Notes under the pieces: generated by a model
What the model was told of the DNA's origin: nothing
Databases searched by the model: none
The model's input: only the letters and a program-made list of their open reading frames with translations
In this document: in pieces, positions 1-2,898 of the stretch
Layout: each line of letters starts with the position of its first letter
Position numbering within the stretch: position 1 is the first letter of the stretch
Translations under genes and position numbers: made by a program
IMG/VR virus record: IMGVR_UViG_2663762908_000006
Direction: 5' to 3' (one strand)
DNA length: 18,765 nucleotides
Origin: a virus
Taxonomy: Duplodnaviria; Heunggongvirae; Uroviricota; Caudoviricetes

Positions 1-216
1 ATGAAATCCATGGACAAGTTAACAACGGGCATTGCCTACGGCACCTCCGCAGGCAGTGCTGGCTACTGGTTTTTACAGTGGCTTGATCAGGTCAGTCCAT
101 CACAGTGGGCTGCTATTGGTGTGCTGGGAAGTCTGGTTCTGGGCTTTCTGACTTACCTGACGAATCTGTACTTCAAAATAAGAGAAGACAAGCGTAAAGC
201 TGCGCGGGGAGAGTAA
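1..216 (+). CDS. Class II holin (pinholin), S21 family, 71 aa, with dual-start motif
   Basis: Translation [71 protein letters not shown] closely matches my recollection of phage 21 S21 and the K-12 EssQ/EssD holins. Two short TM segments; Met1 and Met4 (MKSM) give the classic antiholin/holin dual start. Sits directly upstream of the SAR endolysin. Confidence 0.85.
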
Positions 217-220
217 TTCA

Positions 221-742
221 ATGACTCAAAACTATGAACTGATTGTGAAAGGGATCCGCAATTTTGAGAATAAAGTTACGGTAACTTTAGCGTTACGGGA
301 CAAAAACCGCTTTGACGGTGAAATTTTTGACCTGGACATCTCGCTGGACCGTGTTGAAGGTGCCGCGCTGGAGTTTTATGAGGCAGCAGCCAGAAGGAGC
401 ATCAGACAGGTCTTCCTGGATGTTGCTGCCGGGTTATGTGAAGGGGATGAGCTGTCGCCGGAAAAGCGCCCCATAATTTTAGAGGCGCAGAATGTGTGGA
501 TAACCTACAAAGGAAAGCTACCGGGAAGAATTACTGGTTCTCTGAAGACGCCACCGACGGCATTGCGGTCAGAAAAAGATGATATTGAATCGCCCATTGA
601 AAAACTGGAGGGCAGCGTCGCTGATCTGAATAAAAAATTGTCGGTGCTGATTCCTTCTGAAGATGAAAAAAAACGCCGCGATGAGCAGTTTGCGGCGTTT
701 TACGATTATTGCATTGAAGTTACTCTCGCAGGAATTTTGTGA
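221..742 (+). CDS. Hypothetical protein inserted between holin and endolysin (position of YdfR/DUF1327 in Qin-like prophages; homology not verified)
   Basis: 173-aa ORF starting 5 nt after the holin stop, with a GGGGAGAG Shine-Dalgarno-like stretch about 10 nt upstream. Composition is protein-like over its full length, including the part overlapped by the antisense ORF. No motif I can assign. Confidence 0.5.
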   Translation: MTQNYELIVKGIRNFENKVTVTLALRDKNRFDGEIFDLDISLDRVEGAALEFYEAAARRSIRQVFLDVAAGLCEGDELSPEKRPIILEAQNVWITYKGKLPGRITGSLKTPPTALRSEKDDIESPIEKLEGSVADLNKKLSVLIPSEDEKKRRDEQFAAFYDYCIEVTLAGIL

Positions 743-982
743 AGATTTTTGAGGAGGGTAAATCTCTTCAGTAAGCTTAATGGCGGACGCTGCAATTAAT
801 TCAGGAAGGTCCGCAAGGTCATCTGTCAGTGGATATGATGAAAAATCGGCGGCAGTTCTGTTAAGAAGCGCTTTAACTAATTCCTTTTCCTTCTCCGGCA
901 ACAAGTTGATTAGAGCTACGACTGCTTGCCTGAGTGCGATTAAATCAGCAAAAGTTTGTTTAGGTAGATTTGTGTAATCCAT
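569..982 (-). CDS. Hypothetical antisense ORF; N-terminal ~80 aa look protein-like, C-terminal ~58 aa overlap the 221-742 gene and look non-coding (possible gene remnant)
   Basis: ATG at 982 is preceded by AGAGG about 7 nt upstream on the - strand. The first ~80 residues (MDYTNLPKQTFADLIALRQAVVALINLLPEKEKELVKALL...) are helical and protein-like. The frame stays open to 569, but that part (…KRRKLLIAAFFFIFRRNQ…FNIIFF) is low-complexity. The region looks AT-rich by eye compared with the flanks. Confidence 0.3.
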   Translation of the reverse strand: MDYTNLPKQTFADLIALRQAVVALINLLPEKEKELVKALLNRTAADFSSYPLTDDLADLPELIAASAIKLTEEIYPPQKSSQNSCESNFNAIIVKRRKLLIAAFFFIFRRNQHRQFFIQISDAALQFFNGRFNIIFF

Positions 983-1095
983 AGTCGCCTCTGTGTTTAT
1001 CAGATTGACATCCTCCTCCCGCCAGTGCCCATCACTGGTGAGGTAAGATTTAACATATCCGGGGATTTGAAGCCGATAAATCCTGATAAATATCC

Positions 1096-2123
<1,028 letters not shown>

Positions 2124-2346
2124 ATTAATATTAAATCGGATTATTTTTAGCGCTGAATGTGAAATTTAAATAAAAAGGACTCTTCCATGAGTCAAAATCC
2201 TTGAAATCTTAAGGGTAAGATAAAAGGTCATTAGACAGAATGACACGTTTTATTAATAAATAAAGCTATTGTTTCATTCGTGTGTTTTTCTTTACAAAAG
2301 TAATCCTTGCTATGGTTGGTTAATCATGCGTTAATGGTGTTCTGGT

Positions 2347-2383
2347 TTGTTACAAAATTATCTGAAGCAGTCATTGTTATAAT
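2347..2383 (+). promoter_or_regulatory. Possible promoter and long AT-rich leader of the cold-shock gene
   Basis: TATAAT at 2378-2383 about 100 nt upstream of the csp start; TTGTTA at 2347-2352 has a poor spacer (25 nt), so the -35 is uncertain. Long AT-rich leaders are typical of cspA-family genes. Confidence 0.2.
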
Positions 2384-2486
2384 TTTATTATTTGTACCTC
2401 TTGAGATTTCCTTGTTGGTTTTTCTCTCTGATATTTTTTTTCGGACCATTCTGCCCAAGGGCTAACTTCTTCAAAAGGTAATAATG

Positions 2487-2699
2487 ATGTCTAACAAAAT
2501 GACTGGTTTAGTGAAATGGTTTAACCCTGAAAAAGGTTTTGGTTTCATCACGCCGAAAGATGGTAGCAAAGATGTGTTTGTCCATTTCTCAGCTATTCAG
2601 AGCAACGATTTCAAAACGTTAACTGAGAATCAGGAAGTCGAATTTGGTATTGAGAACGGACCTAAAGGCCCCGCGGCTGTTCATGTTGTGGCACTTTGA
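2487..2699 (+). CDS. cspI: Cold-shock protein, CspA family (CspI-like)
   Basis: 70 aa from the second Met: [38 protein letters not shown]... carrying RNP1 (KGFGFI) and RNP2 (VFVHF) motifs. Matches my recollection of Qin-prophage CspI. Confidence 0.9.
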
Positions 2700-2898
2700 G
2701 GTAGAAAATATTACAAACCATATTCACTTTAGATGCCCGTGTTGCCATGGTTCTCAGTATAGAACATCATCTTTTGATGTTTCTGACAGGAATCCTTTCG
2801 GGGCAAAATGTATCTTTTGTAAATCAATGATGATTACATTTGATAATATTTCACAATACTTAAATGTTAGCCGTCTATCGTTAGATTTAAGAAAGTGA
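2683..2898 (+). CDS. Small Cys-rich (zinc-ribbon-like) protein, start uncertain
   Basis: ORF overlapping the csp 3' end, with motif C-P-C-C-H-G ... C-I-F-C ([34 protein letters not shown]). Ends 6 nt before a strong intrinsic terminator, so it is probably co-transcribed with the csp gene. No clear SD for ATG 2683; the true start may be non-canonical. May correspond to a known small Qin-prophage protein but I cannot verify. Confidence 0.4.

What the first reader, a model, noticed from the sequence alone, without database searches (positions are those of the whole stretch)
221..982. Accessory module inserted inside the lysis cassette: a 173-aa gene and a convergent antisense ORF between holin and endolysin
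In phage 21 the holin and SAR endolysin are adjacent. Here about 880 bp separate them, holding a tightly coupled 173-aa ORF and a - strand ORF with a good SD. The two ORFs overlap by 174 bp, yet only the + strand reading looks protein-like in the overlap. That suggests either a real antisense gene with an odd tail or a recombination scar that truncated a gene. The 743-1095 stretch looks AT-rich against the flanks, as expected for a horizontally acquired insert. Its function is unknown; lysis-timing modulator, superinfection exclusion or toxin/antitoxin-like roles are all possible.
Basis: partly seen in the sequence, partly recalled or inferred. Interest (0 to 1): 0.55.

Follow-up and report, generated by a model that had tools for sequence, protein, structure and literature searches.

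The report
YdfR gene plus antisense moron cassette
Between the holin and endolysin of this Qin-like lambdoid prophage lie a common phage gene of the YdfR family and a small, conserved backward-facing gene of unknown function, and the odd long overlap between them comes from a 2-base duplication; the genes are real, already annotated elsewhere, and only moderately interesting.

Summary
Both ORFs exist at the stated coordinates and overlap by 174 bp. That overlap is specific to this allele. A CT duplication at 723-724 shortens the + ORF from 183 to 173 aa. The same duplication removes the stop of the - ORF, extending it from 86 to 137 aa. The canonical pair (183/86 aa, 53-bp overlap) is present in most related loci.

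The + gene is a YdfR-family protein with an N-terminal DUF1327 domain. Genes of this family are commonly found between S21-type holins and SAR endolysins. A longer 296-aa form fills the whole slot. Here, the part that would encode its C-terminal domain is replaced by block 722-1089.

That block carries the - gene, which I call X (phrog_2572). X is a genuine protein-coding gene. It has 40-50% identical homologues in Salmonella prophages and metagenomes, and omega between clades is 0.22-0.34. X travels with its Shine-Dalgarno sequence, a conserved upstream motif and a downstream hairpin. In the E. coli clade that hairpin is followed by a T8 tract and looks like an intrinsic terminator. The unit occurs at three different positions in late operons, always facing against late transcription. 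It therefore looks like a moron.

The function of X is unknown: there were no Pfam, PADLOC or PDB matches. The K-12 YdfR homologue has been reported to bind the catalytic half of RNase E.

The parts
1..216 (+). S21-type class II holin (essQ-like), 71 aa
   Evidence: PF04971 Phage_holin_2_1, E 3.5e-35. RefSeq annotates the E. coli HS counterpart as essQ.
221..742 (+). YdfR-family ORF, 173 aa in this allele (183 aa in the canonical form). Residues 1-112 (221-556) are the DUF1327 domain. Residues 113-168 form a helical linker shared with the 296-aa form. The last 5 codons are out of frame after the CT duplication.
   Evidence: PF07041, 141.6 bits against a cut-off of 25. phrog_2091 positions 1-168 of 183 and phrog_1085 positions 1-163 of 296. 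Alignment of the length classes. Residues 1-74 are 81% identical to K-12 YdfR.
723..724 (.). CT duplication (CTCT instead of CT). It shifts both reading frames at the recombination junction.
   Evidence: Alignments with E. coli HS, phages 2H10, PhiR5 and PhiR12. Shared by L010, L016, L021 and L032.
666..701 (-). Hairpin (AAAACGCCGC / GCGGCGTTTT, 12-nt loop) followed on the - strand by a T tract (T8 in total). It starts about 20 nt after the canonical X stop codon and lies inside ydfR codons for KKRRDEQFAAF. Candidate intrinsic terminator of X.
   Evidence: ViennaRNA folds of seven loci from three clades show a hairpin at the same place. The L093-type clade has ACGCCACC / GGTGGCGT, which differs in the stem but still pairs. 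The terminator scan missed it because its loop limit is 8 nt.
725..982 (-). X: the canonical 86-codon ORF of phrog_2572. It is an acidic (pI 4.6) protein predicted to form three helices. In this window it reads on to 569 (137 aa) because its stop codon is lost.
   Evidence: phrog_2572 E 5e-53, full length. RefSeq WP_001557934.1 in E. coli HS. Homologues at 40-50% identity. Omega 0.22-0.34 between clades. AlphaFold2 helices 8-27, 30-48 and 56-74, pLDDT 72.
569..724 (-). Frameshift read-through extension of X (residues 87-137), antisense to ydfR coding sequence. Not part of the conserved protein.
   Evidence: Present in only 5 of 85 sequences, counting the window itself. pI 12. The phrog_2572 profile ends at residue 86.
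988..992 (-). Shine-Dalgarno sequence AGAGG, 5 nt upstream of the X start codon
   Evidence: Read directly from the sequence. The other clades have AAGGA in the same place.
1073..1093 (-). Conserved upstream motif ATATTTATCAGGATTTATCGG (a direct repeat of ATTTATC with a 10-bp period). It lies about 90 nt upstream of X and abuts the endolysin start codon.
   Evidence: Conserved in all three clades, including contexts with no endolysin next door. It occurs once in the window, with 0 matches expected by chance. Its role as promoter or operator is inferred, not shown.
722..1089 (.). The block that replaces the C-terminal-domain coding part of the 296-aa ydfR form. It comprises X and its 5' region.
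   Evidence: blastn against L086: homology covers 1-711 and 1090-1639 only. GC content 43.2%.
1096..1629 (+). SAR-type endolysin (rrrQ-like), 177 aa
   Evidence: PF00959 E 5e-25. Annotated as rrrQ in E. coli HS.
1626..2123 (+). DUF2514 Rz-like spanin (rzpQ-like)
   Evidence: PF10721 E 1.9e-38.

Best explanation
Region 221-1095 holds two separate things.

(1) A YdfR-family late gene. It is translationally coupled to the holin gene and consists of a DUF1327 domain plus a helical linker. A recombination event replaced the part that encodes the C-terminal domain in longer relatives. By analogy with K-12 YdfR, its N-terminal domain most likely binds the catalytic half of RNase E during late gene expression. 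That function is inferred from the homologue.

(2) A self-contained unit of the moron type, pointing against late transcription. It comprises a conserved upstream motif, a Shine-Dalgarno sequence, an 86-codon gene (X) and a downstream hairpin. X encodes a small, acidic, soluble protein predicted to form three helices. Its mechanism is inferred only: it is most likely expressed independently of the late promoter, for example in the lysogen, and acts by binding another protein rather than as part of the lysis machinery.

The ydfR reading frame simply runs into the 3' end of this unit and stops there, which produces the conserved 53-59-bp convergent overlap. In this particular window a CT duplication at the junction frameshifts both genes. 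It removes the last 15 residues of YdfR and adds a 51-residue basic tail to X, so this copy is probably impaired.
For: Presence/absence. K-12 has essQ-ydfR-rrrQ with no - strand gene. The 296-aa locus has S-ydfR-R with no - strand gene. Homology breaks at about 711-721 and about 1090. X is present in 314 of 5426 complete E. coli genomes, always in the same context.

X is protein-coding. Homologues at 40-50% identity keep an intact ORF, with indels in multiples of three. Between clades dS is 1.1-1.5, dN is 0.30-0.44 and omega is 0.22-0.34.

The unit is mobile. It lies between ydfR and R in E. coli. In Salmonella prophages, which have different holins and a GH19 endolysin, it lies between the DUF2514 spanin gene and terS. 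In a third context it lies downstream of the Q antiterminator gene.

Features that travel with X are the upstream motif and the downstream hairpin, whose stem differs between clades but still pairs.

Homology among the convergent partner proteins is confined to their last 35 or so residues. That is the antisense of the X 3' end plus the hairpin.

The frameshift is documented.

The RNase E link comes from PMC13232886. In that study K-12 YdfR bound the RNase E N-terminal half in two-hybrid and co-purification assays, and residues 1-72 were sufficient. The window protein is 81% identical over residues 1-74.
Against: No sigma-70 promoter conserved across the clades was found upstream of X, so independent transcription is not shown. 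The T tract after the hairpin is strong only in the E. coli clade.

Polymorphism within E. coli shows only weak constraint on X: 11 synonymous against 18 non-synonymous changes. Several alleles have lost the start codon or gained a stop codon.

All three clades read the hairpin region in the same partner frame, which could mean that the partner tail is itself under selection.

No structural or family match gives any clue to what X does. The RNase E binding data are for K-12 YdfR only, and overexpressing it had little effect on the transcriptome.
Confidence: 0.6

Rival explanations
1. X and the C-terminal tail of the convergent late-strand protein form a functional two-gene module. The two products might interact, or the 53-59-nt 3' overlap might allow antisense control of the kind seen between lambda OOP RNA and cII (from my own knowledge). 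Such a module could tune expression of the neighbouring lysis genes or the activity of YdfR.
For: In every context X is paired with a convergent ORF overlapping it by 53 or 59 bp. The partner proteins have unrelated N-terminal parts but end in a similar tail...KRRDE..AA...RNF.K...KS.Q. The E. coli and Salmonella-type tails align with E 8e-4. The partner frame relative to X is the same in all three clades. The stand-alone 73-aa partner overlaps the spanin gene by 8 nt, which suggests it is translated.
Against: Tail similarity stops exactly where the X transcription unit (3' end plus hairpin) stops. An overlap of 17-19 codons is about what chance predicts for a frame running into unrelated sequence (my estimate: 3 stops in 64 codons gives a mean of about 21 codons). 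The partner stop codons are two codons apart between clades. In the hairpin the amino acids change (RRDE to RHHE, AA to GVA) while base pairing is kept, which points to selection on the RNA rather than on the protein. The module sits next to different genes in the three contexts, so one consistent regulatory target is hard to see.
Confidence: 0.17
2. The accessory genes modulate lysis. YdfR and/or X would adjust pinholin or SAR-endolysin timing, acting as an antiholin-like or endolysin-regulating factor.
For: The genes lie inside the lysis cassette, and ydfR is translationally coupled to the holin gene. X cassettes are next to lysis genes in two of the three contexts. Helix 1 of X is fairly hydrophobic (Kyte-Doolittle 1.62 over 19 residues). 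According to PMC13232886, an earlier screen linked ydfR to envelope integrity.
Against: The hydrophobic helix of X contains D, R, Q and N, and AlphaFold2 packs it into a bundle. YdfR has no hydrophobic segment (maximum 0.87). X faces against the lysis operon. In one context X lies just downstream of Q, with no called lysis gene on the 3.2-kb contig. Phages with S21-type cassettes exist with no X, and with ydfR forms of very different length, so neither gene is a core lysis component.
Confidence: 0.13
3. The - strand ORF is a chance open frame or a decaying remnant and has no function. Only ydfR matters.
For: There is no family annotation beyond an unnamed PHROG. Within E. coli the dN/dS ratio is about 0.5 and there are disrupted alleles: start codon lost in 7 loci, a nonsense codon in 1 and a frameshift in 5 sequences. 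No promoter was found.
Against: Between clades omega is 0.22-0.34 while dS is above 1. Intact ORFs of 86-93 codons are kept in E. coli, Salmonella and metagenomic phages. Indels are in frame and the Shine-Dalgarno sequence is conserved. The cassette is found at three different genomic positions.
Confidence: 0.05

Closest known systems
E. coli K-12 Qin prophage lysis cassette: essQ-ydfR-rrrQ-rzpQ/rzoQ, followed by cspI
   Same: The gene order and gene families are the same: S21-type holin, DUF1327 YdfR, SAR lysozyme, DUF2514 spanin and a downstream csp gene. The first 74 residues of YdfR are 81% identical.
   Different: K-12 ydfR is 103 aa, overlaps the rrrQ start codon and has no - strand gene after it. 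Here YdfR carries a different linker, and the X cassette adds about 370 bp.
Lambdoid morons, for example lambda bor on the opposite strand just after Rz (from my own knowledge; a bor gene lies after rz in Stx2 phage 86)
   Same: A small accessory gene faces against the late operon and is present in some relatives but absent in others. Its GC content is lower than that of its neighbours. It has its own terminator-like hairpin. In Salmonella-type phages it occupies the same post-Rz slot as bor.
   Different: X is a soluble acidic helical protein, not a lipoprotein. No promoter could be recognised. Expression from the prophage has not been shown.
Stx2-converting phage 86 slot: S, YdfR (268 aa), a - strand 104-aa hypothetical protein (phrog_1853), then R
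   Same: The slot and architecture are the same: a YdfR-family gene followed by a convergent small gene before the endolysin gene.
   Different: The - strand protein is unrelated to X (no alignment; different PHROG). The YdfR there keeps the C-terminal domain, and the two genes do not overlap.
296-aa YdfR-family proteins (phrog_1085, e.g. P0049)
   Same: 84% identity over residues 1-168 of the window protein, covering the DUF1327 domain and the linker.
   Different: They continue into a C-terminal region of about 125 residues that fills the slot up to the endolysin gene. In the window this part is replaced by the X cassette.

Membership tests
YdfR family / DUF1327 (PF07041) | Match to the Pfam model above its gathering score | tested here: met
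   141.6 bits against a cut-off of 25, residues 1-112, E 9e-42.
YdfR family / DUF1327 (PF07041) | Binding of the N-terminal ~72 residues to the RNase E catalytic half, as reported for K-12 YdfR | not testable with these tools
   Only sequence identity could be checked: 81% over residues 1-74. The experimental data are in PMC13232886.
phrog_2572 (unnamed phage protein family) | Full-length match to the 86-position profile | tested here: met
   E 5e-53, residues 1-86 to profile positions 1-86. The distant homologue P0140 also matches, E 3.5e-27.
Moron (independent accessory transcription unit within a phage operon) | Present in some closely related phages and absent in others, with sharp homology breakpoints | tested here: met
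   The breakpoints lie at about 711-721 and about 1090.
Moron (independent accessory transcription unit within a phage operon) | Own transcription terminator | tested here: inconclusive
   A conserved hairpin lies about 20 nt after the stop codon in three clades. A canonical T8 tract follows only in the E. coli clade. No transcript data were available.
Moron (independent accessory transcription unit within a phage operon) | Own promoter | tested here: inconclusive
   A conserved 21-nt motif is present upstream. No sigma-70 consensus promoter is conserved across the clades.
Moron (independent accessory transcription unit within a phage operon) | Base composition different from the neighbouring genes | tested here: met
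   43.2% GC for 722-1089, against 50.0% for the holin gene and 51.7% for the endolysin gene. The difference is modest.
Toxin-antitoxin module | Two co-transcribed genes with a recognisable toxin or antitoxin domain | tested here: not met
   The genes are convergent, not co-oriented. There were no Pfam, NCBIfam or PADLOC matches for X or for the YdfR tail.
Antiholin / membrane lysis regulator | At least one transmembrane or SAR-type segment | tested here: not met
   The YdfR maximum hydropathy is 0.87. Helix 1 of X reaches 1.62 but contains D13, R18, Q19 and N26, and the model packs it in a three-helix bundle. No dedicated transmembrane predictor was available.
Anti-CRISPR AcrIIC4 | Significant sequence or fold similarity | tested here: not met
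   Profile against PDB sequences gave only E 0.18-0.21. Foldseek against the PDB found nothing with E below 9.

The most novel reading that the evidence does not exclude
X and the conserved C-terminal tail of the convergent late-strand protein form a previously unrecognised, mobile two-gene unit. Its 53-59-nt antisense 3' overlap and embedded hairpin would couple a lysogen-expressed small protein to a late-expressed effector. In the YdfR-fused form that effector binds RNase E, so the unit would link prophage state to the control of RNA decay or lysis genes.
Probability: 0.12. Interest if true: 0.6.

Novelty: new member of a known kind. Interest (0 to 1): 0.33.

Why it matters
The result tidies the annotation. 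The 137-aa ORF and the 174-bp overlap should not be taken at face value, and RefSeq's 'incomplete YdfR' call hides a 183-aa fusion ORF.

It also defines a small conserved cassette (motif, X, hairpin; phrog_2572) that has moved between three late-operon positions in E. coli and Salmonella prophages. About 6% of complete E. coli genomes carry it. Small acidic prophage proteins of this kind often turn out to be inhibitors of host or phage proteins, so X is a reasonable candidate for functional screening.

The YdfR-family length classes (about 115, 176/183, 211, 243, 268 and 296 aa) give context to the recent report that K-12 YdfR binds RNase E. K-12 YdfR looks like a truncated form of longer phage proteins.

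Tried and rejected
- **Family searches.** Pfam, NCBIfam and PADLOC gave nothing for X or the YdfR tail. The best Pfam scores were ABATE at E 0.078 and DUF1823 at E 0.11, both below threshold. The 'DUF1823' label used in the PhiR phage records is therefore not supported.
- **Structure of X.** Foldseek of the X model against the PDB found no match. A profile search of PDB sequences gave only sub-threshold AcrIIC4 hits.
- **Structure of YdfR.** AlphaFold2 of the 296-aa YdfR form gave pLDDT 42. Only residues 4-67 or so (three strands and a helix) were modelled with confidence, so the Foldseek hits (E at least 0.1) carry no meaning.
- **RNA families.** Rfam found no RNA family in 221-1095. The only hit was GcvB at 18.6 bits against a threshold of 42.
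- **Promoter searches.** The tool's scan and my own relaxed scan across the three clades found no shared sigma-70 promoter.
- **Is 743-1095 a diverged copy of the ydfR-long 3' half?** I tested this and rejected it. Neither blastn nor tblastn found any similarity.
- **Is Stx2-86 gp06 a homologue of X?** Rejected.
- **Species range.** The scan of GTDB species representatives returned one E. coli locus only, so it added little on taxonomic range.
- **Literature.** Searches for WP_001557934, phrog_2572 and PF07041 found nothing useful.
- **Spurious hits.** Two long repetitive proteins (P0142, P0144) from the exhaustive HMMER search were dismissed as repeat or low-complexity matches.

Full report
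**What is in the window.** Positions 1-2123 are a Qin-type lambdoid lysis cassette. It contains an S21-type class II holin (1-216, PF04971), a 173-aa ORF (221-742), a 137-aa - strand ORF (569-982), a SAR-type lysozyme (1096-1629, PF00959) and a DUF2514 Rz-like spanin (1626-2123). The closest complete genomes, such as E. coli HS, annotate the same stretch as essQ, 'YdfR family protein (incomplete)', an 86-aa hypothetical protein on the opposite strand (WP_001557934.1), rrrQ and rzpQ.

**Checking the observation.** So are the 879-bp spacing between holin and endolysin and the 174-bp overlap. GC content of 743-1095 is 43.1%, against 50-52% in the flanking lysis genes, which is a modest dip.

The overlap itself is peculiar to this allele. 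E. coli HS is identical across 309-1200 apart from two substitutions and lacks a CT at 723-724. Phages 2H10, PhiR5 and PhiR12 also lack it. Without those two bases the - ORF stops at 720-722 (86 aa), the + ORF continues to about 774 (183 aa), and the overlap is 53 bp.

Four IMG/VR contigs carry the same duplication over 540 identical bases, so it is a real lineage allele and not an error of one assembly. It is still a minority form. The listed matches among the 314 complete E. coli genomes that hold this block all span 309 rather than 311 bases. Of the 75 related loci that could be assessed, 62 have the canonical pair of a 169-211-aa + ORF ending in KSLQ and an 86-aa - ORF. The 51-residue extension of the - ORF has pI 12 and is simply the antisense of ydfR coding sequence.

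**The + strand gene.** Residues 1-112 match DUF1327/YdfR at 141.6 bits, against a cut-off of 25. A database search shows that the family comes in discrete length classes:
- about 114-116 aa (DUF1327 alone; the most numerous clusters);
- 176, 183 and 211 aa (DUF1327, a helical linker and a short tail);
- 268 aa (DUF1327 and a C-terminal region);
- 296 aa (DUF1327, the linker and the C-terminal region).

The 296-aa form is 84% identical to the window protein over residues 1-168. In its own locus it fills the whole slot from holin to endolysin, with no - strand gene. Nucleotide homology between that locus and the window runs from 1 to about 711-721 and resumes at about 1090. Nothing in 722-1089 resembles the 3' half of the long gene at either DNA or protein level.

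The window gene is therefore a YdfR-family gene whose C-terminal coding part has been replaced. Its reading frame runs on into the replacing block and stops there. K-12 ydfR (103 aa) is yet another truncated form. It matches the first 99 residues of a 243-aa metagenomic relative at 83% identity.

**A functional lead for YdfR.** A 2026 study found K-12 YdfR in a two-hybrid screen. It confirmed binding to the N-terminal catalytic half of RNase E by two-hybrid assay and by co-purification. Residues 1-72 were sufficient, and RNA co-purified with the protein (PMC13232886). The window protein is 81% identical to K-12 YdfR over residues 1-74. My AlphaFold2 model of the 296-aa form was poor overall (pLDDT 42). 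It was confident only for a three-strand-plus-helix unit at about residues 4-67, and the fold search on it was uninformative.

**The - strand gene (X).** The first 86 residues match phrog_2572 end to end (E 5e-53). A word-indexed search found only E. coli sequences at 85% identity or more. Within E. coli the polymorphism pattern is unconvincing. There are 28 variable sites, spread 8/9/11 over the three codon positions, giving 11 synonymous and 18 non-synonymous changes. Some alleles have lost the start codon or carry a nonsense codon.

The exhaustive HMMER search and a follow-up profile search then found true distant homologues of 89-93 aa at 40-50% identity, in Salmonella enterica prophages and in metagenomic contigs. 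All keep an intact ORF, their indels are multiples of three, and a Shine-Dalgarno sequence sits in the same place. Between the three clades dS is 1.1-1.5, dN is 0.30-0.44 and omega is 0.22-0.34, calculated outside the overlap. X is therefore a real protein-coding gene under purifying selection.

The X protein is acidic (pI 4.6). It is predicted with moderate confidence (pLDDT 72) to form three helices at 8-27, 30-48 and 56-74, followed by a disordered Ser-rich tail. It has no significant match in Pfam, NCBIfam, PADLOC, PDB sequences or PDB folds. A sub-threshold resemblance to AcrIIC4 (E about 0.2) is noted but not relied on.

**The unit that moves.** X homologues occur in three different places within late operons:
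- between a YdfR-family gene and the SAR endolysin gene (E. coli; L093; L099 and L100 also show the YdfR-family partner, but those contigs end before any endolysin gene);
- between the DUF2514 spanin gene and the small terminase subunit gene, in Salmonella prophages whose holins and GH19 endolysin are unrelated to those here (L094-L097, and also L090-L092);
- downstream of the Q antiterminator gene, after TerB-like and DUF3927 genes (L098).

In every case X faces against late transcription. Three things travel with it: the Shine-Dalgarno sequence, a conserved upstream motif, and a hairpin after the stop codon.
- The motif is ATATTTATCAGGnTTTATCnG, at window 1073-1093 on the - strand. It occurs once in the window, and it is present even where no endolysin gene is adjacent.
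- The hairpin starts about 20 nt after the X stop codon. In E. coli it is AAAACGCCGC / GCGGCGTTTT followed by more T (T8 in all), which looks like a classical intrinsic terminator. In the L093-type clade the stem is ACGCCACC / GGTGGCGT, so pairing is kept while the encoded amino acids on the other strand change.

I could not find a sigma-70 promoter conserved across the clades. Independent transcription is therefore inferred from orientation and architecture, and has not been shown.

**The convergent overlap.** Every X homologue overlaps, by 53 or 59 bp, the 3' end of a late-strand ORF. These partner ORFs have unrelated N-terminal parts: DUF1327 plus linker, a 144-aa protein, or a 73-aa stand-alone ORF. 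All end in a similar tail. This could indicate a functional gene pair.

However, the similarity is confined to the last 35 or so residues, which is exactly the antisense of the X 3' end plus the hairpin. The partner stop codons differ by two codons between clades. An overlap of 17-19 codons is also about what chance predicts for a frame reading into foreign sequence. I therefore treat the tail as most likely a by-product of X's transcription unit, and I keep the two-gene-module idea as the main rival.

**Interpretation.** A different - strand cargo gene (phrog_1853) occupies the same slot in Stx2 phage 86, which marks this position as a recurrent cargo site.

The evolutionary and structural parts of this account are well supported. 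The functions are not. For YdfR, RNase E binding is inferred from the K-12 homologue. For X, I can only propose a lysogen-expressed, protein-binding role such as exclusion, defence or host modulation. In this window the CT duplication alters both products, so this copy may be impaired.

**Novelty.** Both genes are already annotated in public records, as a YdfR family protein and a hypothetical protein, and each belongs to an existing PHROG. The following points were worked out here:
- the frameshift explanation for the long overlap;
- the recombination breakpoints;
- the deep homologues of X and the evidence of purifying selection on it;
- the cassette's three genomic positions, with its conserved motif and hairpin.

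This amounts to a new member of a known kind (a lambdoid moron) of unknown function, and its interest is moderate to low.

Noticed in passing
window 2329-2745 (+), with the ORF at 2484-2699: A full-length cspA-type thermoregulator 5' UTR (RF01766, 109.8 bits against a threshold of 78) precedes a CspI-like cold-shock gene just downstream of the lysis cassette, as in Qin. The region 2100-2450 is very AT-rich (28-31% GC).
   Followed up: partly
window 666-673: An A8 run inside ydfR, which is also the T tract of the candidate X terminator, appears to be a second frameshift hotspot. Protein P0094 (172 aa) reads out of frame from this point yet ends in the same LAGIL tail as the window protein.
   Followed up: partly
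L045, L046, L056, L058, L065, L067, L070 (IMG/VR loci): Seven loci have the X start codon changed from ATG to ACG. All of them also carry the 176-aa ydfR allele, which has a 7-residue deletion in the linker. Gene callers then extend X upstream to 127-128 aa (P0002, P0006).
   Followed up: partly
L005 2477-2791 (Stx2-converting phage 86): The same slot between ydfR and R holds an unrelated 104-aa - strand gene (phrog_1853, function unknown). This suggests the position is a recurrent site for antisense cargo genes.
   Followed up: partly
L103 1055-1366 (E. coli K-12 ydfR) compared with L099 443-1174: K-12 YdfR (103 aa), the protein used in the RNase E study, matches only the first 99 residues of a 243-aa phage relative (83% identity). 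It therefore looks like a truncated remnant of a longer protein.
   Followed up: partly
hits H1-H3 (E. coli 2017-03-3CC, 04A19CPO007, Ec-U7): In three complete genomes an IS2 element is inserted within the region matching window 1-1700, splitting the match into two pieces.
   Followed up: no
window 1073-1095: The endolysin start codon is directly preceded by the AT-rich X-cassette motif, and no purine-rich Shine-Dalgarno sequence is visible. In K-12 the ydfR stop codon overlaps the rrrQ start codon. Insertion of the cassette may therefore have changed how endolysin translation starts.
   Followed up: no
window 725-982 (-), X residues 10-28: Helix 1 of X (TFADLIALRQAVVALINLL) reaches a Kyte-Doolittle score of 1.62, which is close to the scores of the holin transmembrane segment and the endolysin SAR segment (1.72 each). 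It contains D, R, Q and N, so it is probably a buried bundle helix. No dedicated membrane predictor was available to check this.
   Followed up: partly
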